The position numbers and the translations under genes are program-made. Positions 2,231 through 22,908 of a stretch of 34,109 nt of DNA are shown piece by piece. Under the pieces are notes generated by a model. The model did no database searches. It had not been told where the DNA came from and worked only from the letters and a program-made list of their open reading frames with translations. This DNA comes from a virus. Lineage: Duplodnaviria > Heunggongvirae > Uroviricota > Caudoviricetes. Within the stretch, counting starts at the first letter, position 1, and every line of letters starts with the position of its first letter. The stretch is from positions 1 to 34,109 of the IMG/VR virus record IMGVR_UViG_2913167280_000005; one strand, 5' to 3'.

Positions 2231-2250
2231 GGCCGCAGAAGCGGCCTTTG
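2231..2250. terminator. GC-rich hairpin (GGCCGC-AGAA-GCGGCC) with short T tract; possible bidirectional terminator
   Basis: Stem-loop read directly; followed by TTTG on the plus strand and by TTCCATTCTT on the minus strand. The U tracts are weak. Confidence 0.35.
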
Positions 2251-2261
2251 TGACATGTCAC
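2250..2261. repeat. 12-bp palindrome GTGACATGTCAC, copy 1 of 3
   Basis: Exact palindrome overlapping the stop codon of the 64-aa membrane-protein gene; the same motif recurs at 20545 and 22897. Confidence 0.45.
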
Positions 2262-2452
2262 AGAAGAGGAAGTTTGAACACGATCGCCGCCAGCACCACA
2301 AACGTTAGGAAGTAGACAGCTTTTGACGATGTTTCTCCTAGCAAGCCCTTATCAATAGCAAAGATTATCGCCCACAAATATGCGGTTCCGCAGGCAACAA
2401 CCACAGCAAACCAGAAGATAATCAGACCTAGCTTCAGTAAAATATCCATCAT
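2258..2452 (-). CDS. small membrane protein (64 aa, 2-3 predicted TM helices); virion/ejection-associated or holin-like
   Basis: Strongly hydrophobic sequence (LGLIIFWFAVVVACGTAYLWAIIFAI, AVYFLTFVVLAAIVF); start overlaps the stop of the upstream gene. Confidence 0.5.
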   Translation of the reverse strand: MMDILLKLGLIIFWFAVVVACGTAYLWAIIFAIDKGLLGETSSKAVYFLTFVVLAAIVFKLPLL

Positions 2453-5205
2453 TGCCCTACCGCCTTACCTAAATCCGGCGCACGTCTTGGCGCTGTATCA
2501 CCAGGCTCCCACCAACTGGTGGTGTTGAACTCCCGCTGGGCCCGGTCTCTCACCCTATCGTTGTAGCCAGGGTTTGCCATCTCCTGAAGCTGTTGCAGGA
2601 TCAGATGATTGGTCACCGCTTTAGCATACCAGAGGTTGGCGAACGGGGTGATCATGCGCGCCGTCTTCAGCGCATCGGCGCCGAATGACGTCTCTTCACC
2701 TTGTAGCGCCTTCTGTGGGTTGGTGATGAGGAGTTTAGTCAACTGTTCAGCGAAGCTCAGTACAGGGCCGCCCAGAGTGGCCGCAATACTGGAGCCGTAC
2801 TGCGTGTGGTCCTGGAACAGGAAATCGCCGTAGATGCCGAATGAACCACCTTTAAGCAGCGGCTGAATCCACGTCGTAGGCTTCGTCATATCAAGCGGGT
2901 CATTACCAGTAAGCAACGAGTTCATCTGGTTGGCAAACATGCCTGCCAGCGTTGTTCCAGCAATGTATGACGCAAGGAACTTGATACCGGGCACGCGGTC
3001 AAGATCTATTGTACGGTTAACCAACTGACGGAACCCGGCAAACGACGTGGTTTTGAATAGCATGAAGCTCTTCACCAGTTGTCCGGCATCATCACGGGCA
3101 TATGTATCCAGCCCGGTCGCCGTCGTGATGGCACTGGTCATTTCTCCGTGTGTGACACCCAGCAGTTTTTGAGCCGCTTCAGCACGGGCATTACGAACCA
3201 TGCGAGCAACAGTCTGTTCTGCCTCTGCATCGAACGCCTGTTTCATCCTGGTTCGACGTTCCTGTGGGATATCACCAAGAGCCGCCAAAGCGGTTTCACT
3301 CCCGGCCCTAACCTGCGCAATTCGATCAGCCATGATTGCGTGTATCGCTTCATCAGGTACGGCGTAAATCGCGTCCGGTGTCATTCCCATGTGGCCTGCT
3401 GTGGTCATTGGCCTGAGTTCTGCTGCCGCCATGATAGCCCAGTCCTCATTGCTCCAGCCTTTGCTGGCAAGAATGGTCTTGTCTGACCCCTTCACCTCAT
3501 CCAGCGTTTTAAAAGTGCGTGTCAGTTCGCCGATGTTCTTGTACATCAGCAGACCGAACGAAGCTTTGTTGGCGCGGTCCATTGCGATAAGACCGGACCA
3601 CTTCAGCGTCTTCTCAGCAAACCAGCCGGTGATGCCACGTGACAGGTCAAAGCCGCCCATCTTCGATACCACTGCGGCATGAGAATCCACCAGCAGGCCA
3701 AGCTCAGCATTAGCTCGCTTTGCGTCACCGCTGAACAGGTTTTTGATGGTGTTAGCAGAGAGACGCATACCGCCTCGCGAGAAGCCAAGAGCCTGAGCGT
3801 TGGCACGCATGATGGCCTGGTCACTGGTCGCCGTCAGAACGCTGGTACCGAGCATGGCGCTGGTCATCAGGTTACGCAGACCGCCGACGGCTGACGTGAA
3901 CACGCTTGATTCCTGCACGCCATTCAAACCGGCCATTGAGTTAAACATGCGCTCAACCATCGTTTTCTCGCTGTTCATCTTACCGACGTCTTTACCACCG
4001 GTGACTGCACGCTGATAAATCCTGTCGTTAATCAGCTTGAAGTTATTCGCCGCGTCTGGGCCAAAGGCCTTTACAGTGCCCAGGTCTCGAGACGATGACT
4101 GAAGGTGTGACATCATCACGCCGACAACCGGCTGTTCGGTGTAGCGTTCCATGTACGCGAAGTGCGACTGTGCATCCTTGAACGCCATCACCCTGCTCTG
4201 CGAACCACGATTTTTAATGCCACCTGTTCCCATGAATGCGCCGGGGTCCAACTTGTTCGCACCGTCTGTCGCCTTGGTTTCGTAAATGGCCTCCAGCGCC
4301 TGGCGGTACTCGATGTCATTCATCGGTGAGCCGTCGAGATTCACATACTGCGAGCGGTCTTGCGTGTTGTACACGTCGTCGACCCAGGCCTGTTTAGCAA
4401 ACTCAATCGGCGGCTGCCGTCCTGATAATCGAGCCTTGGCCTGCTCCGCTGCAGAAAGGCTGGCAAGCCATTCATCGCGGCCTGAATTACGGATAAGGTC
4501 AGCATCGTCGACATACGGCAGATTCCAGTTATCACGCTGCCCGATATCAAACCCGGCGTCGTTCATCTCCTGACGAGCCCGGCTGGTCACATCACCCCAG
4601 ACCTGAGCTATTTTCTTCGCCTGTGGGTTGCCCGTGTCTTCACCGTAAATCTCTTTGAGGATCTGCAACTGCCCGGACTTCGCCACGCGCTGATCGAACA
4701 GGCTGCGGAAGCGTTGCTCGCCGAGTGCCTTACTCTGCTCGAAAAACTTCTGCACTTCTGGCCCGGCCTTCAGTAGTTCGGCGCTTAGTTGGCGAGACCA
4801 GTCCTGATATGCGCCGGTGGCGAGTTCTTCCGCCGAGGTAACAGGAATATCAGTTCTGTCTGTTGTACGACGGCCGGAGAAAATAAGTTGCTGGAGGTTG
4901 GCTGGGGTTTGCTGCTCTGGCGGGATGGCGGCATCCAGCGTATCGGTGACTTTCGATATGGCAATCGCATTTTGCGCAAGGCGCTGGCGCTTCTTATACA
5001 CGTCATGCACCACGCGCTGGCGAACCAACTCGGCGGCATCCATATATGTCTGAGCGTCGGGGATACCAGTTTTGCCTTCTCGTGCATTGTTGCGGCTGAC
5101 CTGACGGACGGCTTCCTTGATGCGGTCCTCAATATTTTTCAACTCATCGGCCTTTGGCTTGCGCCCAAGCGTCTGCGCAATGGCTTCTACACATGCCTGT
5201 TTCAT
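2449..5205 (-). CDS. large internal virion/ejection protein (about 918 aa)
   Basis: Long ORF in the structural operon; ATG at 5205 overlaps the upstream stop (TAATG) with GAGGAA upstream (track start is a GTG at 5226). Function is from size and position in a T7-like gene order. Confidence 0.6.
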   Translation of the reverse strand: MKQACVEAIAQTLGRKPKADELKNIEDRIKEAVRQVSRNNAREGKTGIPDAQTYMDAAELVRQRVVHDVYKKRQRLAQNAIAISKVTDTLDAAIPPEQQTPANLQQLIFSGRRTTDRTDIPVTSAEELATGAYQDWSRQLSAELLKAGPEVQKFFEQSKALGEQRFRSLFDQRVAKSGQLQILKEIYGEDTGNPQAKKIAQVWGDVTSRARQEMNDAGFDIGQRDNWNLPYVDDADLIRNSGRDEWLASLSAAEQAKARLSGRQPPIEFAKQAWVDDVYNTQDRSQYVNLDGSPMNDIEYRQALEAIYETKATDGANKLDPGAFMGTGGIKNRGSQSRVMAFKDAQSHFAYMERYTEQPVVGVMMSHLQSSSRDLGTVKAFGPDAANNFKLINDRIYQRAVTGGKDVGKMNSEKTMVERMFNSMAGLNGVQESSVFTSAVGGLRNLMTSAMLGTSVLTATSDQAIMRANAQALGFSRGGMRLSANTIKNLFSGDAKRANAELGLLVDSHAAVVSKMGGFDLSRGITGWFAEKTLKWSGLIAMDRANKASFGLLMYKNIGELTRTFKTLDEVKGSDKTILASKGWSNEDWAIMAAAELRPMTTAGHMGMTPDAIYAVPDEAIHAIMADRIAQVRAGSETALAALGDIPQERRTRMKQAFDAEAEQTVARMVRNARAEAAQKLLGVTHGEMTSAITTATGLDTYARDDAGQLVKSFMLFKTTSFAGFRQLVNRTIDLDRVPGIKFLASYIAGTTLAGMFANQMNSLLTGNDPLDMTKPTTWIQPLLKGGSFGIYGDFLFQDHTQYGSSIAATLGGPVLSFAEQLTKLLITNPQKALQGEETSFGADALKTARMITPFANLWYAKAVTNHLILQQLQEMANPGYNDRVRDRAQREFNTTSWWEPGDTAPRRAPDLGKAVGQ

Positions 5206-7142
5206 TATGGATTCCTCAGGAAGCACGCCGCCGCAACGGAGTAAACTTTCGATTTTGCTTTTGCAGTCTGGATCTGCTCGTCAAAGTCAGCCAGAACATC
5301 GGATAACTTCATCTGCTGCCCGGTGTCAGGATGCGTTACGGTCAGATCAGGATTAGCTGTCGCCATGTCGCGCGCTGCCATCAATTCATAGTTGTTGTCA
5401 GAAATGGCCTGTCCACTGTCCGGATCAACGCTTACCTGTCCGGCATCTTCATCAACACGAGAAAATGCGCTTTCGCTGCGTGGAGCCTGCGCCTCCATGA
5501 CGGCATCACGCGGCGTTTCATAGTGAACGCCATTCTCCTGGAAAACCTGCTCCATTGCATGGTACTGATCGTTGGCTGACTCCAGCATGCCAGGACGCGC
5601 CGGGCCATCCAGCCCACGCGCCTGCATAACGATGTTAACCGGCTGGCCTTCTGACAACTGACGGGCTGCCTCATCCATGGCGGCCACATGGCTGTTAATA
5701 CTCTCGTTTGTACCATGCAGTACTGGTGCAGATTCGATGTCGTAATACAACCCCTCGTTCAGCGTGTGTGCCGCGTCAATGTCGCTGGGTTTGATTGGTG
5801 TTTCCGGAACCAGGCCGCGCATACTCTCAGGAATGATCCCCTGTTCCATACGTGATAAGTCGGCTTTTGCCTCGTAGAACTGGCCGCCTGGCTCATGCGG
5901 AGCCAGGGTGTCTCTGGCGTTTTGCAGACGGTCTCGCGCAACAGTCAGCTGATTGCTGATATCGATTAATTTCTCACGATTGGCTTCGTAGTAGCGCTTG
6001 TTGGCACCCGCTGAGCCGGTCGGCTGAGCATCACGAATTGCCTTTTCCTCGGCCTCCAGTCGCGCCACAGTTCGCTCACCATTGGCAATATCTGATTGCC
6101 ACACTTTCCTGTCACCGCGTGACATCAGTTTCCCGGCGCTGTCCTGTAGTTCTGCCATCCTGGAATCGAATGTTGCTGGTGGCTGCACTGCATCTGTAGG
6201 CGTTCCGATCTCAACAGTTGCTTGCTGCGTAGCATCGACAGGAGCAGCATCAGGTGCAACAATTCCATCAGGTGCGCTCTGCACCTCAGCCGCCGGGATA
6301 GGCGCTTCCACATCGACAGGGTTTGCTGTATCAGTGGCAACCGTGTCGGCACCATCAGCACCGCGCGCAGAAAGATGGTGAGCGCCACCGAACGCGCCGC
6401 CCAGTACCGCATCAATCATCACAGCCTGTCCATCCCATACGCGGTACTGCTTCGCCATATCGGAATAGCCTTTTTCTTCCAGCGTTTCTCCGACGGAAAA
6501 ACGGTTTATACCGCCGAATCCGACGTTGATCCCCACGCCTGAAGCGATACGCGTCAGCAGTGTTTTCCCAAGCGCGGCAGGAAGCGCCATACCCGCAGCG
6601 TTGAAGGTACTTTGCTGCGCTGCGAGATTACGCGCCGTGGACTCATCCACTCCCTTAGCTCTGAAATCCTGATAAGACTGCTCATAAGTAGAGCCGAATG
6701 CCGTTGACGCACCAATAACCGGGCCGCCAGCGATCGTTGCACCAATTGCAGGAACGAACTGGCCCAGACCATTTAACACTTCGGCGGCAGTTCCCTGGCT
6801 TGCCGGGTCTGGTTTGACGTATGCACGCGCACTCTTCAGCGAGTCACTCAGGCTGTCGTAGCTTTCATTGAGCTGCTTGTCAGCATCAGGGAACATCACG
6901 CGGAACATATTCACCGTCGGGGCTACAGCATCAGCCAGAGCAGGATCGCTGATCAGCCGCTTACTGAATCCCACAGCCGACTGCGCCAGCCCCGTAGCGC
7001 CCTCCGCAATGCCGCGCGGCAATGCAGACGCAGATCCCTGAAAGAATGTCGGGTCGTAGTCTTCTGGCCTGGCTGGGTTGGCCTGTGTCTTGTCATCAGT
7101 CCATGCCTGGCCTTCTGGTGCCAGCGAAAATACATCTGCCAT
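5205..7142 (-). CDS. internal virion/ejection protein (645 aa, Ala/Gly-rich segments)
   Basis: ATG at 7142 overlapping the upstream stop; composition and position typical of podovirus core proteins. Confidence 0.6.
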   Translation of the reverse strand: MADVFSLAPEGQAWTDDKTQANPARPEDYDPTFFQGSASALPRGIAEGATGLAQSAVGFSKRLISDPALADAVAPTVNMFRVMFPDADKQLNESYDSLSDSLKSARAYVKPDPASQGTAAEVLNGLGQFVPAIGATIAGGPVIGASTAFGSTYEQSYQDFRAKGVDESTARNLAAQQSTFNAAGMALPAALGKTLLTRIASGVGINVGFGGINRFSVGETLEEKGYSDMAKQYRVWDGQAVMIDAVLGGAFGGAHHLSARGADGADTVATDTANPVDVEAPIPAAEVQSAPDGIVAPDAAPVDATQQATVEIGTPTDAVQPPATFDSRMAELQDSAGKLMSRGDRKVWQSDIANGERTVARLEAEEKAIRDAQPTGSAGANKRYYEANREKLIDISNQLTVARDRLQNARDTLAPHEPGGQFYEAKADLSRMEQGIIPESMRGLVPETPIKPSDIDAAHTLNEGLYYDIESAPVLHGTNESINSHVAAMDEAARQLSEGQPVNIVMQARGLDGPARPGMLESANDQYHAMEQVFQENGVHYETPRDAVMEAQAPRSESAFSRVDEDAGQVSVDPDSGQAISDNNYELMAARDMATANPDLTVTHPDTGQQMKLSDVLADFDEQIQTAKAKSKVYSVAAACFLRNP

Positions 7143-8122
7143 TATTCGACCCTCACCACGATAGCCTGCCCTGTTTTCGGATCGGTTGCCCAGCGCCCAC
7201 TGCCGCTAACCATCCTGTACTGTCCGTTACCGATATTCACCGGCGTGAAGTTGCTGGCGGCGTTTTCGTTCAGCCCGGCATCTTTAAGCGCCTGCTGCGC
7301 TGATACGGTATAGCGGTCCTTGAAGGTGCTTTTGTCCATGCCAAACGGCATTACCACATCGCCACCATTGAATCCCTTATAAATACCACCAGTTGCCATC
7401 TGCGCAGCTTTGGAAACCACATCTGAATTCGCCGCGTCTGTGCGTGCCAGGCCGCTGTCACCTGACTGATATGCAATACCAGCATACGCAGCCTTAAACA
7501 GGCTATAGCTCATCTGGCGAGCCTGAGCGTTATAGGAAAACGAGTTGCCGACCTCATCATCGAAAGCGCGCTTGAGCTTGTCATCGCTCGGCAGTTGGAC
7601 GGGCTGAATGCCGGAGTCCTTCATCGCCTTCGTCGGATTCAGCAACTGATCCCCGGCCAGAATAGTTTTTGAAACGTCGTACTTGTTCATAGTCGGCTTG
7701 TAGCCAATGAACTGATCGTACGAAATAACCGGGTTCTTGTTGTCGTACTGGTTGTCAGGCGTACCAAGCAGCAGCGCGGAATAGGCCGTCGCCGCATTGT
7801 TCGGAGCAATAGCCCCGGCTACCTGCCGCATTGCCGCCGGTGGCAGTGATTGCCCCATGCTCTGCAACAGGTTAATGGTCTGATTAACGTTCTGCGTGCC
7901 GCGAACCTGCTGCGCCAGTGTAGCCGCCTCTTCGCTTGAAAGGATTGGCGCAGTGATACCGAGTTGCTTAAGCCCTTCCTGCGCAGAGAAACGGCTGGAA
8001 ACTTCTTTCGTGATGTCCTGCGGGTTGTTGGTGCTGAGCGGGTGATACGCGCCAATATCGACTGCCGCGTTGAACGGGTTATTCTGGCGATCGCTGATAA
8101 CCTTTGTAGCAGCCGTTTTAAC
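7142..8122 (-). pseudogene. open reading frame continuing the 8123-9682 gene past an in-frame TAG; no independent start signal
   Basis: Same reading frame as the 519-codon ORF. The 85 codons between the TAG (8123-8125) and the first start codon (TTG 7867, ATG 7858) contain no stop and no ATG/GTG/TTG, and there is no Shine-Dalgarno before 7858. The translation looks protein-like (VKTAATKVISDRQNNPFNAAVDIGAYHPLSTNNPQDITKEVSS...). Confidence 0.45.
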
Positions 8123-9682
8123 CTAGTCGAATAACTGAGCGCGCGACGCATACCCCTCGCCAGTTTCGCCAGTGTCAGGTCGCAGTTGATTCACATAGGC
8201 AGTGATGCTGCTAGTCGGCATATTGCGGAATGAGCCAATGTACTGACCGGCAACCTGAGTATTCTTGAATTCGGTATAACGGAGATTTCCTTCACGTACA
8301 CCATAAGCCGCCATGAATGCCGCTTCATCAGGTGGGTTGGGGAACTCAACGCCGCGCATGTATGCGGCGGTGGCATCGCGTACCTGACCATCAATAGTGG
8401 TTTTGTACTGCGCTTGCTGCTGCTTACGCATCTGGTCAGCCTGGCGCATAAACGTTGCCTGAGCTTCTGGTGAGGCAGCGTCAAACGCCGCATTCCCGGT
8501 GTAACGCTTCCCGACCGTCGGCAACTCTGACAGGCCGAGCGCAGCGCTAACTCCGCTGCCGATCTGCTCTTTGGTGTACGGCTGATCCCCGTTCTCATGC
8601 TTGATGATTGCCGAGCACAGCGCACTCAGTGTGTCAGGGTTTGATGCGTCAATCTGCTGATCGGGATGAACACCAAGTTGAGCACAGACGGCTTTGACAT
8701 AAGCAGACGTATCGTTGTTGTCACCAGGCGGTGCCCAGCGGTTAATGATGTCGTTTACCGTATCAATGCCCTGACGCTGGTATGAAAGTAGATTGCGACC
8801 CAGCGCACGAATGCCATGCTCTGGCGTTTCGAATTTGGCAAAGCGGCCGTCATCACCATTCTGGCCTACCCACGGATTAGACTTGCTGTATTCGAGATTA
8901 CCGGGGTTGTTATTTCGGATGCCGCGCGCACCTTCCGCGCCGGAAACATCTGGAGTGCTGGCAACGGCCCGGCGTGAACCAACAACCGTGTCACTAAGCT
9001 CCCCATTCTTCTCGATGAATTCCATGGAGTTATTAGCTGACCATTGCGACAGCGCGTTATCGGCCACCTTCTCTTTGAACTCATTTTTTTTGGCGGTGAT
9101 TTGCTCAGCACTCCAGCCATGCGCCGCACAGTAATCATCAATCTGCTGGAATGTCTGCGAGTTAGCATTAACGTACGCGGCATTATTGCCGTACATCGAT
9201 GCGGCAGTTTTCCCGTTATTCAGCAAAGTGGCCTGGAACTGGCCTTCTTCGTAGGCATTGAGTTGCCCGACTTCATGCCGCCCGGCCTGTGCAGTGAACT
9301 GTATGCGCTGATTCTGAGCTTGCTGGAGGAATCCAGCCCGTGCAGACTCCGGCAGCGTTAGTGCCAGTTCCTGCGCTTTCATGTCGAATTGCTGGGTGTA
9401 CTCCTGGCCTTTGCCAAGAGCATTTTTTCCCTGAAGATTAAGCAGACCCGTATCCGGGTTTGTCATCAGATCACTGGCTGTCTGGCTCAGTTGCAGCGAT
9501 GCATCCTGAGACATGGCAACGTCGGCGCGCAGCTTGGCCTGACCGAGAATGTTCACATACTGATCGGCAACATTCGCCAGGCCACCGCCGAACACATCCG
9601 GGGATGCCTGCACATTGAAACCGCCAGTTGATACACCGCGGCTCTCAACCTGACGACCAGTTGTAGTTGGAACTACTGGCAT
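8123..9682 (-). CDS. internal virion protein, N-terminal part (519 aa), terminated by an in-frame TAG
   Basis: ATG at 9682 with strong AAGGAGGA upstream. Contains a conserved-looking block GIRNNNPGNLEYSK...RWAPPGDNN that I cannot assign to a family. Confidence 0.6.
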   Translation of the reverse strand: MPVVPTTTGRQVESRGVSTGGFNVQASPDVFGGGLANVADQYVNILGQAKLRADVAMSQDASLQLSQTASDLMTNPDTGLLNLQGKNALGKGQEYTQQFDMKAQELALTLPESARAGFLQQAQNQRIQFTAQAGRHEVGQLNAYEEGQFQATLLNNGKTAASMYGNNAAYVNANSQTFQQIDDYCAAHGWSAEQITAKKNEFKEKVADNALSQWSANNSMEFIEKNGELSDTVVGSRRAVASTPDVSGAEGARGIRNNNPGNLEYSKSNPWVGQNGDDGRFAKFETPEHGIRALGRNLLSYQRQGIDTVNDIINRWAPPGDNNDTSAYVKAVCAQLGVHPDQQIDASNPDTLSALCSAIIKHENGDQPYTKEQIGSGVSAALGLSELPTVGKRYTGNAAFDAASPEAQATFMRQADQMRKQQQAQYKTTIDGQVRDATAAYMRGVEFPNPPDEAAFMAAYGVREGNLRYTEFKNTQVAGQYIGSFRNMPTSSITAYVNQLRPDTGETGEGYASRAQLFD

Positions 9683-9691
9683 AAATCCTCC

Positions 9692-14101: not shown

Positions 14102-14117
14102 AACGCTCTCCTGCAAT

Positions 14118-14141
14118 AAAGGGGCCGAAGCCCCTTGTTTG
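14118..14141 (-). terminator. intrinsic terminator (GGGGC-CGAA-GCCCC plus T-rich tract) inside the late operon
   Basis: Hairpin read directly; TTTATT follows on the minus strand, just downstream of the stop at 14153. Confidence 0.5.
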
Positions 14142-14152
14142 ATTAGCGAGGC

Positions 14153-14530: not shown

Positions 14531-14531
14531 C

Positions 14532-14972: not shown

Positions 14973-15023
14973 TTTCTTTCTCCATTCATGGGCCAGTTAA
15001 GGCCCACTGATTAATAACAGGCG

Positions 15024-16010: not shown

Positions 16011-16024
16011 GGTTGTTTCCTCTC

Positions 16025-16738: not shown

Positions 16739-16749
16739 TGGTTATCTCC

Positions 16750-17073
16750 TTAAACCGGGATCGTTTTGGCTTTCAACTGGGCCAGAACAGCGGCAAGAGT
16801 GGTACGTAGTGCGGTTGCATCTGTCAGCAGCGCGTTGTATTTGGCTACCAGGTCATTGTGGTCAGTAACAAGACCAGCAACGTCTGATGCTGAAGAGTTG
16901 GTGTCTGCGGTAGCCGTCATTGCAGCCGGTGCCGCGATAGTCGCTCCAAGCTTTACACCGCCGTAATCGGTTGTGGTCGGAGCGCCAATTACTGCTGGAG
17001 AAGGATCCGGAACCTCAACTACCTGATTTGAGCCATCGAGACGCACGACGCGCTGAGTTTGTACCTGTGTCAT
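16750..17073 (-). CDS. hypothetical head protein (107 aa)
   Basis: ORF between the portal and scaffold genes. Confidence 0.5.
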   Translation of the reverse strand: MTQVQTQRVVRLDGSNQVVEVPDPSPAVIGAPTTTDYGGVKLGATIAAPAAMTATADTNSSASDVAGLVTDHNDLVAKYNALLTDATALRTTLAAVLAQLKAKTIPV

Positions 17074-17381
17074 AAATTGTCCTCACCGGCCTCTGCGGCC
17101 ATCTTCAGATACTGATCCGGGCAGTGCGCCATTACGCGCTGAAATAGCATCAGCGCCAGATTGCGCTGCCCTTCGTTGAATGCAGTCACATACGGGTCAT
17201 TGGTGAAGCAAGGGCCAAAAACACTTCCCTTTTCCAGCAGAGACCACAACACCCGACGGCCCTGTTCAGATCCCATGACGCGTTGAATGTCTTCAATGTC
17301 GCGCTTACGAAGAATCTCATTGGCCACTTCACGGGCTTTTCTTTCTTCGGCGTTCTCTTCATCAAGCAGATCGCTCACCAT
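17070..17381 (-). CDS. hypothetical head protein (about 103 aa)
   Basis: ATG at 17381 overlaps the portal stop (ATGA). Confidence 0.5.
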   Translation of the reverse strand: MVSDLLDEENAEERKAREVANEILRKRDIEDIQRVMGSEQGRRVLWSLLEKGSVFGPCFTNDPYVTAFNEGQRNLALMLFQRVMAHCPDQYLKMAAEAGEDNL

Positions 17382-19066
17382 CACTGACGAGCCCCCGCGC
17401 CAGTGGCGTTAGCCGCTGCGTTTGAAATGGCAGTCAACGCGCTAGGGTCCGACGTCTGCGTTTCGCTGAGAGTCTTGGCCCCCTGAGCCGCTGCCATCCC
17501 CATCTGCATCTGTTGCTGCATCTGAGCCTGTTCGGCGCGAGCTTTACGCAACTGCTCAACCTCTTCCTGCGAGGTGATAACGCTCGGCGATACGCCGGAC
17601 ATTTCCGCGAATGCGTCGATCGCTTCGTCGGCATTGAGCTTGTCGAGTGCTTCCGGTTTGACGGTCGCCAGCTGACCAATGAATGCAACGGTCTGAGAAA
17701 GGCTGGAAATTCCGATTGATTTCTGTGCCTGCGCCATCACCGAGATGTACTCGACTTTCAGCGGCATGCCCTGCATGACCTCAGGCGGTGGCGGCAGCAT
17801 GTTCTTGCGTGCCATGATGGAGAATGCGCGGTCGATAAGCGGGTTAAGGCACTCGTCATTGAGGCGCTCGAGCACCGGGCCAAGCATCAGGAGCTTCTCT
17901 TCCTTCATCTCGATCACCGCTTCAACAGGCATTGAGCGGGTATTGATGTTCTGCAACATCATGAAGAGGTCGACGAAGTAGGCGTTTTTGATGACCTGGC
18001 GTGTGTCCTGAATGTCAGCCAGCAGGTCGGCGGTGTTCGGGTTTACGAGGTAAGCAGGTTTGAATCCGTCCTGATTACCCACCTGGTCGATGTAGGTGAT
18101 GTCGCCAGGCAGCAGGGAGACGCGCTGATTCTTCAGTGACGACGGACCGATCATTGGTGGATTGGTGGCCTTGTCGATCAGCTGGCTCTTGCGTTTCTGC
18201 TCAAGCTGAAGCGCCTTCACCGGGCCCAGTGCAATCATGCCTGGGCAAGATGAGCCGTAAACGTCCTCGCCGTTAACTTCCCAGCGCGGAGCCATGATCG
18301 GGAATTCGTCGTAGCCGGACTCGCGCAGCAGCTTTTCGTTGTCGCCGCCAACCTCAAAGTAAACCGACTTGTACGGCTTGTTCTTGCTGTCCAGCTTGCC
18401 AGTGTCGCGGTCGGTGTTCGGGTATACGGAATGAATCACCTCGATCCACTTCTCGTATGTTCCGTTTTCCCACATGCTTTTAACGGAAGTGCTGACCTTA
18501 TCAAGGCCGAATTCCATCACCATCTGGCGAACGGTCATCGAGAACTTACGGAAGCAGGTATCGACGCTGCCGCGAGCAGAGTTCGACAGGTAGTAGCTGC
18601 CAATCGGGAACATCTGCGTACGGATGATATCGGTGTCGTCTTCCAGTACAGCCATTGCACCAGAGCTGTACGTTCCGAGTGAGGAATACAGCAGCGGCAA
18701 AGACTGATACAGGTTCGAGCGGTTGAACATTTCGTTCATGTATCGCTGAACGGTTTCGCACCACTGCTTAACCGGGCCGTAATCCATCATGTCGGGATCA
18801 GGTGTTGCCAGCTTGAACCACGGACGGGCCGGACTGGTGATGCCTGACATCATGCCACTGGAAAGCACGCGCTCTGCCAGGGTCGCGGTAGGGTCAATGA
18901 TTCTGGTATTGCGGCGATCACGGTTTACGTCAGTGACCAGGAAACGGGAACCACGCGGAATGATGTAATCACTCAGCTCTCGCCAGTGAGATTCGAACGA
19001 AGTACGCTCATTCTCCATTTGCGCAAGCTGCTTAATCAGTTGCTCTTTTACGGTTTCCGTCGCCAT
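17381..19066 (-). CDS. portal protein (561 aa)
   Basis: Size and position between the terminase genes and the scaffold/capsid genes; ATG at 19066. Confidence 0.8.
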   Translation of the reverse strand: MATETVKEQLIKQLAQMENERTSFESHWRELSDYIIPRGSRFLVTDVNRDRRNTRIIDPTATLAERVLSSGMMSGITSPARPWFKLATPDPDMMDYGPVKQWCETVQRYMNEMFNRSNLYQSLPLLYSSLGTYSSGAMAVLEDDTDIIRTQMFPIGSYYLSNSARGSVDTCFRKFSMTVRQMVMEFGLDKVSTSVKSMWENGTYEKWIEVIHSVYPNTDRDTGKLDSKNKPYKSVYFEVGGDNEKLLRESGYDEFPIMAPRWEVNGEDVYGSSCPGMIALGPVKALQLEQKRKSQLIDKATNPPMIGPSSLKNQRVSLLPGDITYIDQVGNQDGFKPAYLVNPNTADLLADIQDTRQVIKNAYFVDLFMMLQNINTRSMPVEAVIEMKEEKLLMLGPVLERLNDECLNPLIDRAFSIMARKNMLPPPPEVMQGMPLKVEYISVMAQAQKSIGISSLSQTVAFIGQLATVKPEALDKLNADEAIDAFAEMSGVSPSVITSQEEVEQLRKARAEQAQMQQQMQMGMAAAQGAKTLSETQTSDPSALTAISNAAANATGAGARQ

Positions 19067-19080
19067 TTCGCAGGACTCCG

Positions 19081-19287
19081 TTACTGTCCGAGCAGCGTTT
19101 TACCGCTGGTATTTGCGGTCGAGGTATCGCCTTGCGCACCGGTCAGCATCGTGGACTTCTGCCCGGCAGCAGCACGGCGTCGACGTTCTTCATCGTCACG
19201 CGCTGACACAACGGCCTGATCCTGTTCCTGTGGTGCGGCCTGAACTTCTGGTGCCGCTGGTACTGAAGGTGAGCCACCCATGCACAT
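19081..19287 (-). CDS. small hypothetical protein (68 aa) upstream of the portal gene
   Basis: ORF with GGAG about 9 nt upstream; Ala/Gln/Arg-rich. Confidence 0.45.
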   Translation of the reverse strand: MCMGGSPSVPAAPEVQAAPQEQDQAVVSARDDEERRRRAAAGQKSTMLTGAQGDTSTANTSGKTLLGQ

Positions 19288-19355
19288 AAACGTAACTCCG
19301 CACGCAATTAAATTATTACCAATTTAACCACATAAGGATTATTTTACGTAGTGCA

Positions 19356-19393
19356 TTGACATTTTATCGAGCAATTATTACCTTAAAGGTAAT
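19356..19393 (+). promoter_or_regulatory. candidate sigma70-type promoter (TTGACA, 17-bp spacer, TACCTT) overlapped by operator dyad ATTACCTTAAAGGTAAT (site A)
   Basis: TTGACA at 19356-19361; dyad at 19377-19393 overlapping the -10 position. Confidence 0.35.
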
Positions 19394-19399
19394 TAATCA

Positions 19400-20156
19400 T
19401 TGCATGATTGATTTGGTGAAGGATGTTGCTATGTGACATTCAACTCACCAGATGAGCCGAATAATTCAGGTTATCGGCTCACAACATGAGAGTGCATTCC
19501 TGACTATCCCCATACGGTAAGCCGTTAAATCCAAATGGTGGAGTGTGCTCTCAGTTGTGAATAACAACCGTTGTATGGCACATGCAGCGATAGCGGTCCG
19601 GCGGGTTCCTTGTAGGGTTCCCTTTCCTAGCCGGGTAGCCGGAATGTGCAAGCCTGGCTCGCTAACGGCCTTAGGGCGATTCACCATCGTGGCGATACGG
19701 TGTGACACCTCGGAAGAGACGAGGATGCAATGATGAGAGCATTGGTCATGGAGCGGTGGAGAATGAATCTGAGCTTCTTGGCGGTTGCAGCGGATTCTTA
19801 CATGAAAACCTGTGCTTTCTTCATTGTGGCAATGCGGCTGTGCGCACGTGACGAGGCATTTCATTCCACGCTTGAAATGAAAAGTTATCTAATAGTTTAA
19901 CGTCGTCAGCCGTAGCCGGGCTGACAGGTGGAGGCACCACCGCCACAAATCAAATCACGCCTCAGGACCGTTATACCCGTAGTACCTGTAACGATAGCTT
20001 TAACTTGGCGGTGTCAGAAACAACCATCCCGAAGTCGCTGGCACCGCCCTTTTTACACCAGAACGTCATTGCGATGGCTTTCCGTTGTAAACCCGTAATG
20101 CCAAGGAAGGCAGACTCCCATGCTTCCAGCTCGCCCACTTCGGTGGGCATTTTTTT
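19400..20156 (+). ncRNA. long untranslated leader / candidate structured RNA ending in an intrinsic terminator
   Basis: About 750 nt with no convincing ORF on either strand; stable hairpins at 19452-19480 and 19904-19924; a long GGCGGTG...CACCGCC hairpin plus CTTTTT at 20008-20055; canonical terminator at 20133-20156. Confidence 0.3.
20133..20156 (+). terminator. intrinsic terminator (GCCCAC-TTCG-GTGGGC plus 7 T) abutting the ribosome-binding site of the downstream ORF
   Basis: Perfect 6-bp GC stem with a 4-nt loop and U tract; AAGGTGA follows immediately, with the ATG at 20169. Confidence 0.7.
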
Positions 20157-20168
20157 AAGGTGAAAATT

Positions 20169-20540
20169 ATGAAAGAGATTGAAGAACTTAACCCGCCACG
20201 CGGCGAGATGACAGAATACCTAAAACAAGCTATCGGCGAAGGATATCAGCCTGAGCATGAAGATGCGGTATCTGACCTGTCAGTGATTGATGGTCTGAAT
20301 GATGGAGATCTGAATCGTGAGTTCGGTAAGTGCTGGCAGTGGTACAATATGGGCGGCGGACTCCATGAAACATTAGAGAATGGACTATCAAAATCAGATG
20401 CCGATTACCGCAGTGAACACTTATACAACATGAAATTACAATGCCTGCATGCGGCGATTATTCAGAATGGGCTATTCGATAAAACCAATGCCACCAATAT
20501 TGCGGAAGCAATCAACGCTGGATTCGATGCCATTAAGTAA
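20169..20540 (+). CDS. acidic hypothetical protein (123 aa), plus-strand accessory gene between terminase and portal
   Basis: ATG at 20169 with AAGGTGA 5 nt upstream (track start is a GTG at 20160); about 23 Asp/Glu against 11 Lys/Arg; no recognisable domain. Confidence 0.6.
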   Translation: MKEIEELNPPRGEMTEYLKQAIGEGYQPEHEDAVSDLSVIDGLNDGDLNREFGKCWQWYNMGGGLHETLENGLSKSDADYRSEHLYNMKLQCLHAAIIQNGLFDKTNATNIAEAINAGFDAIK

Positions 20541-20544
20541 CACC

Positions 20545-20556
20545 GTGACACGTCAC
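20545..20556. repeat. 12-bp palindrome GTGACACGTCAC, copy 2 of 3
   Basis: Begins 5 nt after the TAA stop of the 123-aa ORF. Confidence 0.45.
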
Positions 20557-20715
20557 AATCATCCTGCTCATCTGTATTGGTTTATGAACTCAACATTGTT
20601 ATTCTGAATAGCGCGGTAAATTCTCGGGCTAACGAGACGGGGAAAGAAGGTGGCTGTTGTCAACCTGCCACATGCTGGGTATCAGCACCAGCTACCGCGC
20701 ACTGATGATGTCATG

Positions 20716-20741
20716 AGCCAGCCGATGCGCTGGCTTTTTTT
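20716..20741 (+). terminator. intrinsic terminator (AGCCAGC-6 nt-GCTGGCT plus 6 T) closing the plus-strand cassette
   Basis: Stem-loop and U tract read directly; ends 6 nt before the convergent terminase large-subunit stop codon. Confidence 0.7.
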
Positions 20742-20746
20742 GTGCA

Positions 20747-22213
20747 TCATGCAAAGGGGTCATAATCTGTTATGGCTTTCCCTTGCTGCTGACCCGGCAG
20801 ATTCATCTTCTTCGCTACCGGAAACGCGAAGGTCAGCAGTAGCGCGTCACCGTCACCAGGCGAACGCCCGAGACGATCTTTAATGTCTTCTTTCGGCTCC
20901 ATCACAATCTTGCCATCCACCCTGACTTTGTACTCTGCCGCCGACAGGTCATCGGCAGTCTGCTGATTGTCAAGCATACCGCCGAGCTTCAGCCATGACT
21001 TGCAACTGTTGAACATCTCGCCGCGCTTGTTAAGCATTTGCGGATCTGTTGATGCGCCACCGAACGGAACAAGTTGCCATGAACGCCCCCAGCCATCACT
21101 GACAGATTTCAGCCCGGTTCCGTAGCCGAAGTCGATGAACACTGCGTCGGCCTTGTACTCGTCCTCGAAGTCGGCGATGCGCTTCGCCATAATCAGGTCG
21201 TCGGTTGTCTTCGAGCCAGACCAGAGCTTTTTGCTATGCAGCCCCTGGCGCAGGTATATCACCGCGTCATCAGCACCGGAGTATGCCGGATCAACGCCGA
21301 TAATCACCGGCGCATGAGCCACCTGCGCAGCGGTAACGACGCGCTTCATCGCAGCATCAGTGAGCCCGGTCGGGATAAACTGCAGCTCTGATGCATCAGG
21401 GAAGATCCCACGCACGCGAACCTTCACGAAGTCAGAATCCTCGCCGTAATCGTCAACCCACTTCTGCAACTGCTCTTTGTTCGTGCCCTCTACGGTGCGG
21501 GAATCAATCTGCGCCGTCTTCCACCGATGCTTGTATTTGCGGAAGCACTCGCGGAAACGTCCGGTGTTTCGCGTCGGGTTACCGAACGCCACCCAAATAA
21601 TCTCGGTGTCCTCGTCCGTCAGAGCGCCCTCGGCAACCTCCCACACCAGATCGGCAATGTTGGATGCTTCATCGAATACCACAATGATCCGCTTGCGCTC
21701 GTTGTGCAGCCCGGCGAATGCCTCGGTATTGTGCTCAGACCATGGGATAGCGTCAGCACGCCAGCGCTTATCATGCCCGGCATCGTTGCTGTACATCGCT
21801 GTGGCGGTGCAGGTGAACCACTCTTTTGTGATAGCCAGGTTCGACCATTTGATGATTTCCGGCCATGTCTTGGTGCGAAGCTGGTTATCGGTGTTGGCGG
21901 TCACCACCACCTTGCAGTCCTCGCAGGTGGACATGCCCCAGTTAATCAGCATCGAGATGAATGCCGATTTCCCGATGCCGTGTCCGGATGCGCGGGCAAT
22001 CATCAGCGGCTGGTAACGTGTTGCGGGATTCTGGAGGTGATCTCGTATCTCGCGGAATGCGTCTGCCTGCCACTTACGCGGCCCAGTAGCGTGTGACAGC
22101 TCGGTGCCATCCTCACCCCAAGGGAATGCATACAGTGCATAGCCAAGCGGGTCATGTGTAAACCCGGCAATGTCCTCGATGAGTTGCTCTTCTGGCGACG
22201 GTGATTCGGTCAT
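20747..22213 (-). CDS. terminase large subunit (488 aa)
   Basis: Walker A-like GHGIGKS; ATG at 22213 overlaps the small-subunit stop (ATGA); size typical. Confidence 0.9.
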   Translation of the reverse strand: MTESPSPEEQLIEDIAGFTHDPLGYALYAFPWGEDGTELSHATGPRKWQADAFREIRDHLQNPATRYQPLMIARASGHGIGKSAFISMLINWGMSTCEDCKVVVTANTDNQLRTKTWPEIIKWSNLAITKEWFTCTATAMYSNDAGHDKRWRADAIPWSEHNTEAFAGLHNERKRIIVVFDEASNIADLVWEVAEGALTDEDTEIIWVAFGNPTRNTGRFRECFRKYKHRWKTAQIDSRTVEGTNKEQLQKWVDDYGEDSDFVKVRVRGIFPDASELQFIPTGLTDAAMKRVVTAAQVAHAPVIIGVDPAYSGADDAVIYLRQGLHSKKLWSGSKTTDDLIMAKRIADFEDEYKADAVFIDFGYGTGLKSVSDGWGRSWQLVPFGGASTDPQMLNKRGEMFNSCKSWLKLGGMLDNQQTADDLSAAEYKVRVDGKIVMEPKEDIKDRLGRSPGDGDALLLTFAFPVAKKMNLPGQQQGKAITDYDPFA

Positions 22214-22800
22214 TTCTCACCAGCCTCTCTGATGCGGCGGCGCGCGGATGCCATGCGGTCTGCAATGGTGACGGTGCCGGAAACCTCGAGGCGTTCTTTG
22301 AACGCCATAACATCGACGTGCTTGCCGATGAGCTCCAGATTCTTCACCTTGTCGGGCCATTTTATCTTTTTGAGGATGCCGACCAGTTCTTTCTCATCGC
22401 CGCGCCCCTCAAACATGTCTGCCAACTCGAATCCGGTAAGATACTGGCGCCAGACCCTCGGCCACTCCGAAACCGGTTTAATACTCATGTCATCGTTCAG
22501 AATGTCGATCACATCCATCTGGTCGATTTCCACCAGGCGAAGCAGAACATAATCAGCGCTGACGCGGGTGCGCTTGTTGCGCTCCTCCATGAGTTCAGCA
22601 ATCCGTTTCTGGATTCGCTCATCGCGCATCATGACGCTGGCTTTGACCGCCGCCGTATTAGGAGAAAATCCTGCGTCTATCGCCGCCTGAGACTGATTTT
22701 CAGGGCTCTTGATGTATGACTGGCAGTAAGCCTCCTGCATCGCTGTAAGCGGCTTAAATTGCGTTGATTTGCGTTTGTGTGGTTTTGGTTCCGCTGGCAT
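22210..22800 (-). CDS. terminase small subunit (about 196 aa)
   Basis: Directly upstream of and coupled to the large subunit; ATG at 22800 with GGTGG upstream (track start is a TTG at 22812). Confidence 0.75.
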   Translation of the reverse strand: MPAEPKPHKRKSTQFKPLTAMQEAYCQSYIKSPENQSQAAIDAGFSPNTAAVKASVMMRDERIQKRIAELMEERNKRTRVSADYVLLRLVEIDQMDVIDILNDDMSIKPVSEWPRVWRQYLTGFELADMFEGRGDEKELVGILKKIKWPDKVKNLELIGKHVDVMAFKERLEVSGTVTIADRMASARRRIREAGEK

Positions 22801-22802
22801 TG

Positions 22803-22837
22803 TTACCACCAAAGTAATTAATTACCGTTGTGGTAAT
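22803..22837. promoter_or_regulatory. two adjacent operator-like dyads (GTTACCACCAAAGTAAT and ATTACCGTTGTGGTAAT; sites B0 and B) just upstream of the terminase small-subunit start
   Basis: Read directly; centres 19 bp apart; B0 is a 4/5 half-site match. Confidence 0.4.
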
Positions 22838-22845
22838 ACTATCAT

Positions 22846-22873
22846 GCAAAACAAAGCCGCCATAGTCGGCGGC
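22846..22873 (-). terminator. intrinsic terminator (GCCGCC-6 nt-GGCGGC plus TTTGTTTTG) immediately upstream of the late operon
   Basis: Hairpin and U tract on the minus strand, between the small early genes and the terminase start. Confidence 0.6.
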
Positions 22874-22896
22874 CGTTGCTGTTATTTATATTCATC

Positions 22897-22908
22897 GTGA
22901 CATGTCAC
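22897..22908. repeat. 12-bp palindrome GTGACATGTCAC, copy 3 of 3
   Basis: Directly abuts the stop codon (22910-22912) of the 56-aa gene, upstream of the late-operon terminator. Confidence 0.45.

What the first reader, a model, noticed from the sequence alone, without database searches (positions are those of the whole stretch)
2250..22908. 12-bp palindrome GTGACAYGTCAC marks the 3' ends of three small genes
Copies at 2250-2261 (overlapping the stop of the 64-aa membrane-protein gene, beside the 2231-2246 hairpin and the antisense 86-aa ORF), 20545-20556 (5 nt after the stop of the acidic 123-aa ORF) and 22897-22908 (abutting the stop of the 56-aa gene, 23 bp upstream of the late-operon terminator). 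Three exact or near-exact copies of a 12-mer at equivalent gene-end positions in 34 kb are unlikely by chance. Candidates: a protein-binding site for late-transcription control, a cassette-boundary or recombination signature for small accessory genes, or an RNA processing site.
Basis: seen in the sequence. Interest (0 to 1): 0.55.

Follow-up and report, generated by a model that had tools for sequence, protein, structure and literature searches.

The report
Conserved phage operator palindrome at operon ends
The 12-bp palindrome is real and strongly conserved, and it is most likely the DNA docking site of a small, uncharacterised phage regulator encoded right beside one copy, marking the ends of three phage operons rather than three small genes.

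Summary
GTGACAYGTCAC occurs exactly three times in the window (2250, 20545, 22897), against 0.02 expected. The window is an epsilon15-like (Uetakevirus) prophage with its late genes on the minus strand.

All eight Uetakevirus genomes examined carry GTGAC-NN-GTCAC at the same three syntenic places, always with a 2-bp spacer:
- the end of the early-right operon, at or after the stop of the 112-aa gp49-like gene;
- the terL/moron convergence point;
- the end of the virion-structure operon (gp18-like).

Each site lies beside an intrinsic-terminator hairpin.

The motif travels with the gp49/N15-gp46 protein family (PHROG 536) across unrelated backbones. It overlaps or abuts the gene's stop in 73 of 80 IMG/VR loci, and also in N15, ZF40, lambdoid, Mu-like and P2-like phages. 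N15, ZF40 and Vibrio K303 each hold three copies. A distant protein subfamily carries a co-varying variant (GTGACCGGACAC). Lambda, which lacks the gene, has none.

The protein models confidently as a ribbon-helix-helix-like fold plus a Zn knuckle with weak TraR likeness.

Best reading: this is the cognate operator of that regulator, probably controlling RNA polymerase at operon boundaries. Binding and effect are inferred, not shown. No paper in the searchable library contains the motif.

The parts
22897..22908 (.). Palindrome copy A (GTGACATGTCAC), at the end of the early-right operon
   Evidence: The syntenic copy overlaps the gp49 stop in epsilon15, SPN1S, 65FD, BUCT554 and the Klebsiella phage and in 73 of 80 IMG/VR loci.
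20545..20556 (.). Palindrome copy B (GTGACACGTCAC), between convergent terL and the plus-strand moron
   Evidence: A syntenic copy is present after terL in all eight Uetakevirus genomes. In the others it lies directly beside the bidirectional hairpin that follows terL.
2250..2261 (.). Palindrome copy C (GTGACATGTCAC), at the end of the virion-structure operon; it overlaps the stop of the 64-aa gene
   Evidence: A syntenic copy is present in all eight genomes, 1-3 nt (17 nt in the Klebsiella phage) from a GC-rich hairpin shared with the convergent ant-like gene.
23082..23420 (-). gp49 / N15-gp46-family gene (112 aa, PHROG 536), the candidate binder of the palindrome
   Evidence: - PHROG 536 match, E = 2.8e-49.
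- AlphaFold model with pLDDT 93.
- hhalign to TraR gives 72% probability over residues 46-106.
- Gene and motif co-occur across backbones.
22910..23080 (-). 56-aa ORF inserted between the gp49-like gene and palindrome A
   Evidence: No family hit. Most relatives have no ORF here. Three IMG/VR loci carry other insertions at this place.
22855..22874 (-). Intrinsic terminator of the early-right operon, 22 nt after palindrome A
   Evidence: In relatives a terminator follows site A in 62 of 76 loci, with at least four unrelated hairpin sequences, against 76 of 1600 random windows.
2231..2246 (.). GC-rich hairpin (GGCCGC-AGAA-GCGGCC) abutting palindrome C, between the convergent 64-aa and 86-aa genes
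   Evidence: Fold z = -4.9. The epsilon15 equivalent is annotated as a terminator. The T-run is imperfect in this window.
20715..20736 (+). Terminator between the moron and the terL stop. In this window it is displaced about 160 nt from palindrome B
2258..2452 (-). gp18-like 64-aa membrane protein, the last gene of the structural operon
   Evidence: PHROG 29212; synteny with epsilon15 gp18.
1959..2219 (+). 86-aa antirepressor-like (Ant) moron convergent on site C
   Evidence: PHROG 450 and 1760 anti-repressor. The 65FD homologue is annotated as an anti-repressor.
20169..20540 (+). 123-aa moron convergent on terL, ending 4 nt before palindrome B
   Evidence: Different phages carry unrelated genes here.
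20747..22812 (-). terS-terL operon, bracketed by palindromes A and B
22821..22837 (.). ATTACC-N5-GGTAAT site in front of terS (context: operon start signal). Further copies at 19377-19393 and 1866-1882
   Evidence: The epsilon15 record annotates these as 'repressor' sites.

Best explanation
GTGAC-NN-GTCAC is a dyad-symmetric DNA operator. I propose that a dimer of the phage's own small regulator binds it. That regulator is the gp49 / N15-gp46-family protein (PHROG 536), encoded at 23420..23082 immediately upstream of copy A.

The gene and a copy of its site form a portable module, with the site overlapping or abutting the gene's stop codon. Phages that carry the module usually hold about two further copies.

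In epsilon15-like phages the three copies sit at the 3' boundaries of the early-right operon, the terminase operon and the virion-structure operon. Each lies next to an intrinsic-terminator hairpin, and two lie where late transcription meets convergent moron transcription.

The most likely role is that the bound regulator decides what RNA polymerase does at these boundaries: read-through versus stop. This would time the passage from early to late genes and insulate convergent units.

- Shown: non-randomness, synteny, gene-site co-occurrence, co-variation of site variant with protein subfamily, and a confident model with the fold of a nucleic-acid-binding protein.
- Inferred: that gp49 binds the site, that it binds as DNA rather than RNA, and the direction of any effect on termination.
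For: **Non-randomness.** The window has 3 copies against 0.02 expected. Each full genome has 1-4 copies against 0.03-0.05 expected. Lambda, which has no homologue, has 0.

**Synteny.** The same three places are occupied in 8 of 8 Uetakevirus genomes at about 77% DNA identity. The arms are invariant and only the two central bases vary.

**Link to the gene.**
- The site overlaps or abuts the gp49 stop in 73 of 80 IMG/VR loci, and in 3 more after an inserted ORF.
- The same holds for homologues at 43-68% identity in other backbones: L091, L092 (lambdoid with Q), L095/L096, Mu-like L099/L100 (where the site is kept inside a C-terminal extension encoding VTGH), ZF40, N15 gene 46 and Yersinia P2-like gp13.

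**Extra copies elsewhere.**
- N15, ZF40 and Vibrio K303 each have three copies.
- The N15 repA-internal site is conserved at the homologous place in L092, with a non-synonymous change of the central dinucleotide.

**Co-variation.** The roughly 37%-identity subfamily (Aeromonas phage 85AhydR10PP and L094) carries 3 and 2 copies of the same asymmetric variant, GTGACCGGACAC, all in one orientation relative to the genes.

**Reverse test.** Of 120 viral stretches holding CGTGACATGTCACG, 28 encode a family member. In 15 of those the site lies within 116 nt of the gene's 3' end.

**Protein.**
- AlphaFold pLDDT is 93.
- A few family members give weak Pfam RHH hits.
- The C-terminal helix plus CxxC...C knuckle aligns to TraR with hhalign probability 72%.

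**Terminator link.** A terminator lies within 100 nt after site A in 62 of 76 loci, using at least four unrelated hairpins, against 4.75% of random windows.
Against: - The TraR likeness is weak: E = 0.05 against PDB sequences, nothing with DksA, and nothing by Foldseek.
- Some family members show no site in the DNA examined (L088 and L097). L087 lacks site A, and phiV10-like phages have a one-mismatch site A.
- The geometry relative to the terminator differs between sites: about 20 nt upstream at A, abutting at C, and on the far side of the hairpin in the late direction at B. In other phages the sites lie inside genes or just before Shine-Dalgarno sequences. A single termination mechanism is therefore not evident.
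- N15, ZF40 and L092 also encode Q, so the family is not a general substitute for Q.
- Most viral-contig occurrences of the 14-mer have no family member in the held stretch. Some are explained by coding (VTCH zinc-finger motifs) or by iteron arrays of another protein.
Confidence: 0.55

Rival explanations
1. The palindrome is read as RNA, not DNA. It would be a small hairpin or sequence tag at transcript 3' ends or just before ribosome-binding sites. It would serve mRNA processing or stability, translational coupling, or recognition by an RNA-binding protein; gp49 has an arginine-rich N-terminal helix and a Zn knuckle.
For: - Sites overlap stop codons and precede terminator hairpins.
- In N15, L092, Vibrio K303 and the Aeromonas phage, sites sit 2-20 nt upstream of a Shine-Dalgarno sequence and start codon.
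- The asymmetric variant is always in the same orientation relative to transcription, 5 of 5 sites.
- At sites A and C the fold places a small stem-loop beside the terminator hairpin.
Against: - The hairpin is only 4-5 bp, and it is absent from the minimum-energy fold at window site B.
- The arms are invariant with no compensatory stem changes, while the 'loop' varies. This is the signature of a double-stranded dyad site rather than an RNA stem.
- The variants GTGACCGGACAC and GTAACGCGTCAC break pairing.
- Site B lies downstream of the terL hairpin in the late direction.
- Rfam has no match.
- The protein fold matches DNA-binding RHH proteins.
Confidence: 0.15
2. A conserved host protein of enterobacteria and vibrios binds the site. 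The nearest known candidate is MatP, whose matS site GTGACRNYGTCAC has identical half-sites. The phage would exploit it for nucleoid positioning or protection.
For: - The half-sites are identical to matS, whose consensus was confirmed in PMC6907758.
- The common central pairs AT, AC/GT and GC equal matS with its middle base removed.
- Phages carrying the motif infect Escherichia, Salmonella, Klebsiella, Yersinia, Pectobacterium, Vibrio and Aeromonas. From my own knowledge, this is the clade that has MatP.
Against: - The spacer is 2, never 3, in every site seen, so the defining 13-bp matS pattern is not met.
- The motif tracks a phage gene across backbones, and its variant co-varies with that gene's subfamily. 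A fixed host protein would not predict this.
- Relatives integrate at guaA (PMC9782041). From my own knowledge, guaA lies outside the Ter macrodomain.
Confidence: 0.12
3. The motif is a recombination or cassette-boundary signature at which accessory genes (morons) are exchanged.
For: - The moron next to site B differs between phages (at least three unrelated genes), yet it always ends 4-28 nt from the palindrome, often as TAA-CACC-GTGAC.
- Extra ORFs are inserted on either side of site A in different phages.
Against: - No recombinase co-varies with the motif.
- 12 bp is too short for known site-specific systems, and no attC-like or core-plus-arm structure is present.
- Sites inside essential coding regions (N15 repA, ZF40 cII-like gene) are conserved without any cassette.
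- Junctions are expected to coincide with any selectively retained element.
Confidence: 0.05
4. The sites belong to DNA packaging or replication: pac recognition by terminase, or initiator iterons.
For: - Copies A and B bracket terS-terL in all Uetakeviruses.
- Vibrio K303 has a copy 19 nt before terS.
- The Tyrion record is opened exactly at the palindrome centre.
- An unrelated viral contig (L128) has GTGAC-rich iteron-like arrays inside an initiator-like gene.
Against: - Tyrion is circularly permuted and terminally redundant, so the record's ends are not physical ends (PMC5754475).
- N15 is a cos phage and Mu-like phages package differently, yet both keep the gene-site module.
- Single dispersed sites are not an iteron array.
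- ZF40 and N15 sites are far from the terminase genes.
Confidence: 0.05

Closest known systems
matS / MatP (E. coli Ter macrodomain organiser)
   Different: The site is 12 bp rather than 13 bp (spacer 2, never 3). gp49 has a Zn knuckle instead of a four-helix bundle and coiled coil. The binder is encoded by the phage beside its site.
Lambda-type Q antiterminator with QBE and tR'
   Same: The regulator gene is the last early gene, directly before the late genes. Its presumed DNA site is followed within about 20 nt by an intrinsic terminator that late transcription must pass.
   Different: gp49 is not a Q-family protein (no Pfam hit). No promoter or pause element is evident at the site. Q co-exists with the family in N15, ZF40 and L092. 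Two of the three sites have a different geometry.
Operators of ribbon-helix-helix regulators (Arc/Mnt of P22, CopG, omega heptads, ParG/ParR, antitoxins)
   Same: Short dyad or heptad repeats with half-sites about 7 bp apart. The protein is small and basic, with a strand-helix-helix core and an N-terminal basic arm. Top structural matches are MazE, KacA, TacA, CopG, ParD, NikR and Arc.
   Different: Those operators overlap the promoter of the regulator's own operon. Here the site sits at the 3' end of the gene and at other operon ends. The loop between the two helices is long (9 residues), and a Zn knuckle follows.
TraR / DksA family (RNA-polymerase secondary-channel factors; includes phage lambda Orf73)
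   Same: A long helix followed by CxxCG..(I/L)P...G...C and a short C-terminal helix. hhalign to F-plasmid TraR gives 72% probability, covering nearly all of TraR.
   Different: The fourth Cys is displaced. The residues aligned with TraR's acidic N-terminal tip are basic (RRPGRAPYE). A 45-residue domain precedes the helix. There is no similarity to DksA, and no structural hit by Foldseek.
N15 dispersed sopC-like centromeres (SopB sites scattered in the phage genome, reported to affect late gene expression; from my own knowledge)
   Same: A few copies of a short palindrome dispersed through a temperate phage genome, recognised by a phage-encoded protein, with a possible link to late transcription.
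   Different: The sequence is different (TGGGACC..GGTCCCA type), as is the protein (ParB-like SopB). The present motif also occurs in integrating phages that need no partition.
SlmA-binding site (GTGAGTACTCAC) and CRP site (TGTGA-N6-TCACA)
   Same: The outer GTGA...TCAC bases.
   Different: Four of the 12 positions differ from the SlmA site, at the AG..CT core. The CRP site has a 6-bp rather than a 4-bp gap. Neither pattern is met.

Membership tests
matS (MatP site) | 13-bp pattern GTGACRNYGTCAC | tested here: not met
   All sites have a 2-bp spacer. No spacer-3 site occurs in the window or in the 12 phage genomes examined. The consensus was taken from PMC6907758.
matS (MatP site) | Bound by host MatP; located in the Ter macrodomain | not testable with these tools
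   No binding assay is possible. Relatives integrate at guaA, which from my own knowledge lies outside Ter.
Operator of a phage-encoded dimeric regulator | Dyad symmetry with invariant half-sites and a tolerant centre | tested here: met
   The GTGAC arms are invariant, and the centre is AT, AC, AG, CC, GC or TG.
Operator of a phage-encoded dimeric regulator | Co-occurrence and co-variation with the regulator gene across unrelated genomes | tested here: met
   At least seven backbones carry the pair. A variant site goes with the distant subfamily. 28 of 120 motif-bearing viral stretches encode the family. Lambda has neither gene nor site.
Operator of a phage-encoded dimeric regulator | Direct sequence-specific binding by the protein | not testable with these tools
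   This needs EMSA, footprinting or ChIP.
Ribbon-helix-helix superfamily (the protein) | Strand-helix-helix fold, dimeric, with sequence or structure similarity to known RHH proteins | tested here: inconclusive
   - Model pLDDT 93, with an extended segment at 19-29 and helices at 30-42 and 52-75.
- Weak Pfam RHH_5, RHH_1 and RepB-RCR_reg hits in 5 of 55 members.
- The dimer could not be modelled.
DksA/TraR C4 zinc-finger family (the protein) | CxxC-N17-CxxC zinc finger after a long helix; significant profile match | tested here: inconclusive
   - hhalign to TraR gives 72% probability.
- hmmsearch against PDB sequences gives E = 0.05.
- The fourth Cys is not conserved.
- No Pfam PF01258 hit.
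- No match to DksA.
Q-type antitermination module | Q-family protein (for example PF06323) with a DNA site at a late promoter or pause, followed by a terminator | tested here: not met
   The protein has no Q-family hit, and no promoter is predicted at the sites. Only the 'terminator downstream' feature is met, at site A in 62 of 76 loci.
nut/boxB-type RNA antitermination site or other structured RNA | Stable conserved hairpin with covarying stem; known RNA family | tested here: not met
   The stem is a weak 4-5 bp and is absent from the minimum-energy fold at site B. No compensatory changes were seen. There is no Rfam hit.
Intrinsic terminator | GC-rich hairpin followed by a U-run | tested here: not met
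   The palindrome itself is not a terminator. It lies beside separate terminator hairpins.
Cassette recombination site (integron attC-like or recombinase core) | Longer imperfect palindrome with a conserved core and an associated recombinase | tested here: not met
   Only 12 bp are conserved and the flanks are not. No recombinase is linked to the motif. Sites inside conserved coding regions have no cassette.

The most novel reading that the evidence does not exclude
The gp49/gp46 family would be a new class of elongation-stage transcription factor. A dimer is tethered to matS-like 12-bp DNA sites through a MatP-like ribbon-helix-helix core, and its TraR-like zinc domain engages RNA polymerase as the polymerase arrives. 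This would switch terminators at operon boundaries, in effect a DNA-site-loaded late-gene antiterminator (or terminator enhancer) for Uetakeviruses, which have no Q or N. Because the site is a perfect palindrome, it would present the same signal to polymerases arriving from either direction at convergent gene pairs. A corollary is that MatP and this phage family may share ancestry.
Probability: 0.15. Interest if true: 0.85.

Novelty: new variant of a known kind. Interest (0 to 1): 0.6.

Why it matters
Late-gene control in epsilon15-, phiV10- and SPN1S-like phages is not understood. They have no recognisable Q or N, and this group includes serotype-converting phages of Salmonella and E. coli O157.

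A conserved regulator-operator pair at the three operon boundaries gives a concrete, testable handle on the early-to-late switch, and on how prophage morons are insulated from late genes.

The same gene-site module occurs in N15-like, lambdoid, Mu-like, P2-like, Vibrio and Aeromonas phages. A single experiment, gp49 binding to the 12-mer, would therefore annotate a protein family (PHROG 536) currently labelled only as 'transcriptional regulator' or hypothetical.

If the TraR-like domain really contacts RNA polymerase, it would be the first sequence-tethered secondary-channel-type factor. The identity of the half-sites with matS also raises an evolutionary question about the origin of MatP.

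Tried and rejected
- **Chance:** rejected by shuffles and by conservation.
- **CRP, SlmA or matS membership:** the spacing or core bases do not fit.
- **Prophage-repressor operator:** the epsilon15 record's 'repressor' sites are a different palindrome, ATTACC-N5-GGTAAT. It marks operon starts, not the GTGAC sites.
- **Physical genome end:** the Tyrion record is cut at the palindrome centre, but the paper reports a circularly permuted, terminally redundant genome.
- **Promoter element:** GTGACA resembles a -35 hexamer, but no consistent -10 follows, and no promoter is predicted at any of the three sites.
- **Known RNA family:** none found.
- **Literature:** no paper in the searchable library contains GTGACATGTCAC, GTGACTGGTCAC or GTGACNNGTCAC in a phage context. 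The epsilon15 genome paper, the SPC32H papers and the MatP-matS structure paper are not held.
- **Pfam and NCBIfam:** nothing for gp49 or for the small neighbouring ORFs.
- **Foldseek against PDB and BFVD:** uninformative. The afdb50 library was unavailable.
- **Profile-based locus search:** the diverse alignment failed for lack of conserved stretches. It was replaced by exact look-ups of individual distant homologues.
- **Reverse scan for the 14-mer:** many single hits have no family member nearby. Inspection shows coding-driven occurrences (VTCH zinc-finger motifs) and one iteron array, so these are not counter-examples, but they limit the test.

Full report
**1.

GTGACAYGTCAC occurs exactly three times in the 34,109-bp window: at 2250-2261, 20545-20556 and 22897-22908. 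Dinucleotide-preserving shuffles expect 0.02. Relaxing to two mismatches adds only chance-level matches, and no other spacing between GTGAC and GTCAC is present.

- The hairpin at 2231-2246 is very stable (fold z = -4.9), but in this window it lacks a good T-run.
- At 20545 the nearest terminator (20715-20736) is about 160 nt away.

**2. What the window is**

The window is an epsilon15-like (Uetakevirus) prophage, about 77% identical to epsilon15, Tyrion, SPN1S and relatives, with its late genes on the minus strand. An identical copy of its 112-aa protein is on record from Escherichia sp. E2593.

In the late direction the order is:
1. The early-right operon, ending with the 112-aa gp49-like gene (23420..23082) and an inserted 56-aa ORF.
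2. Palindrome A, then a terminator (22874-22855).
3. An ATTACC-N5-GGTAAT site, then terS-terL.
4. A hairpin, then palindrome B and a convergent moron.
5. A second ATTACC-N5-GGTAAT site, then the portal-to-gp18-like structural operon.
6. Palindrome C overlapping the last stop, then a hairpin and a convergent ant-like gene.
7. A third ATTACC-N5-GGTAAT site, then a tailspike gene truncated by an IS3-family element.

**3. Conservation**

Epsilon15 itself has exactly three copies, at the equivalent places. The same is true of all eight Uetakevirus genomes examined, once Tyrion is circularised. PhiV10-type phages carry a one-mismatch site A. The GTGAC arms never change. Only the two central bases vary, and the spacer is always 2.

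The flanks diverge, and the adjacent small genes differ between phages. At least three unrelated morons occur at site B, and ORFs are inserted on either side of site A. The motif therefore marks three syntenic operon ends, not three particular small genes.

The richly annotated epsilon15 record does not annotate the motif. No paper in the searchable library contains it.

**4. The decisive association is with one protein family**

In epsilon15 and in 73 of 80 IMG/VR relatives, the palindrome overlaps the stop codon of the gp49 gene. Three more loci, like this window, have a small ORF inserted between gene and site. Two loci are truncated, and two lack the site or have a degenerate one.

I then took distant members of the family from an exhaustive HMMER search (148 clusters at 50% identity) and looked up their contigs.

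| Homologue (identity to window protein) | Backbone / locus | Site found |
|---|---|---|
| 59% | L091 | GCCGTGACCTGTCACGGC over the stop |
| 50% | L092, lambdoid-type phage with Q | CGTGACATGTCACG over the stop, plus a second copy |
| 57% | L095/L096, another phage | TAG stop followed at once by the palindrome |
| 45% | L099/L100, Mu-like phage | Site kept inside a C-terminal extension (codons VTGH), where other members stop |
| 43% | Yersinia P2-like phage | Site over the stop |
| 68% | Pectobacterium phage ZF40 | Three copies; one lies 2 nt after the homologue's stop |
| about 39% | N15 (gene 46) | Three copies; one overlaps the gene 46 stop |
| 37% | Vibrio phage K303 | Three copies |
| about 37% subfamily | Aeromonas phage and contig L094 | Three and two copies of one asymmetric variant, GTGACCGGACAC, all in the same orientation relative to the genes |

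Further points:
- The site inside N15 repA is conserved at the homologous place in L092. There its central pair differs non-synonymously and matches the pair at that genome's gene-end site.
- Lambda has neither the gene nor the motif. Expected counts are 0.03-0.05 per genome.
- In the reverse direction, 28 of 120 viral stretches holding CGTGACATGTCACG encode a family member, and in 15 of these the site lies within 116 nt of the gene's 3' end.
- The remaining stretches are mostly single hits. Some of those inspected are explained by coding, and one by iterons of another protein.
- A few family members show no site in the DNA examined: L088, L097 and L087.

**5. The protein**

Pfam and NCBIfam give nothing, and PHROGs places the protein in family 536, 'transcriptional regulator'.

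An AlphaFold model built on a 55-sequence alignment is confident, with pLDDT 93. It has a basic N-terminal helix, an extended segment, two helices, a CxxC...C...C knuckle and a short C-terminal helix.

- **TraR likeness.** The family profile's best PDB sequence matches are TraR and YbiI (E about 0.05). hhalign against TraR gives 72% probability over nearly the whole of TraR. There is nothing against DksA, and Foldseek does not confirm the match.

I therefore call the protein RHH-like with a possibly TraR-like zinc domain, and I treat both assignments as leads.

**6. DNA or RNA?**

Four observations favour a double-stranded dyad read by a dimer:
- The arms are invariant while the centre varies.
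- No compensatory stem changes are seen.
- Conserved variants cannot pair.
- The RNA hairpin is only marginally stable.

Two observations keep an RNA-level role alive as the main rival. The asymmetric variant has a constant orientation relative to transcription, and several sites lie just before ribosome-binding sites.

**7. Likely function in this phage**

Site A is followed by an intrinsic terminator within 100 nt in 62 of 76 relatives, mostly 17-24 nt downstream. At least four unrelated hairpin sequences are used. Random windows score 4.75%. The other loci mostly carry a LexA-box promoter and a UmuD-like gene there. Sites B and C abut hairpins at points of convergent transcription.

The regulator gene is the last early gene before the late genes, as Q is in lambda. 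Uetakeviruses have no Q or N homologue in the annotations seen.

I therefore propose that gp49 bound at the three operon ends modulates termination or read-through. This would time late expression and insulate convergent units.

This step is inference. The geometry differs between the three sites, other phages place sites inside genes, and several of them also encode Q.

**8. Comparison with known systems**

The site is not matS (12 bp, not 13), not an SlmA or CRP site, not a terminator, not a known RNA and not an attC-like site (see the membership table).

It works most like an RHH-type operator. It resembles matS/MatP in half-site sequence and protein core, and the Q-QBE-terminator arrangement in genome position. 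I file it under neither.

**9. Verdict**

This is a real, deeply conserved and apparently undescribed cis-element. It is best explained as the operator of the PHROG-536 regulator.

- Confidence in the cognate pair: about 0.55-0.6.
- Confidence that it controls termination at operon ends: about 0.3.
- Confidence in the more radical reading, a DNA-tethered TraR-like factor acting on elongating polymerase: about 0.15.

Noticed in passing
window 1866-1882, 19377-19393, 22821-22837, 28991-29007 (exact); 25769, 28277, 29053 (one mismatch): A second palindrome family, ATTACC-N5-GGTAAT, has 7 sites against 0.03 expected. The epsilon15 record labels it 'repressor'. It lies directly in front of terS, the portal operon and the tailspike, as well as around the rep/cro region. 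Each late operon therefore starts with this site and ends with the GTGAC palindrome.
   Followed up: partly
window 1-1136 and 1331-1804: An IS3-family insertion sequence (orfA 1-285, orfB 333-1136 with an rve domain) truncates the tailspike gene, whose remnant is the minus-strand ORF 1804..1331. The prophage is probably defective.
   Followed up: partly
L002 (Enterobacter phage Tyrion, NC_031077.1), record ends: The deposited record ends ...GTGACA and starts TGTCAC..., so it is opened exactly at the centre of palindrome A. The genome paper nonetheless describes a circularly permuted, terminally redundant genome.
   Followed up: partly
L056, L080, L019, L022 downstream of site A; window 22888-22896 remnant: Some relatives have a Shine-Dalgarno sequence and an 8-codon mini-ORF (MCDEYDGF) between palindrome A and the early-operon terminator, reminiscent of a leader peptide. 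The window keeps only a fragment (GATGAATAT).
   Followed up: no
L006 (BUCT554) 7860-8260; L007 30139-30540; about 11 IMG/VR loci (e.g. L013, L024): In these phages palindrome A is followed not by a terminator but by a TTGACT promoter with a LexA box (CTGT-N8-ACAG) driving a UmuD-like gene inserted before terS.
   Followed up: no
L103 (N15) 33237 and L092 647: A palindrome copy lies inside the N15-type repA gene at the homologous codon positions in two diverged phages. The central pair differs (TG versus AT), changing the encoded residue (Q versus M).
   Followed up: partly
L128 4690-5140: An unrelated viral contig has dense GTGAC/GTCAC iteron-like arrays, including three GTGAC-NN-GTCAC, inside a 329-aa initiator-like ORF. 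It has no gp49-family gene in the held stretch. Another DNA-binding protein may use the same half-site.
   Followed up: no
window 20129-20148 and 20160-20540: The plus-strand moron downstream of terL is bracketed by its own terminators. The upstream one is GCTCGCCCAC-TTCG-GTGGGC followed by T7. The moron's product is acidic and has only a weak PHROG match (4846).
   Followed up: no
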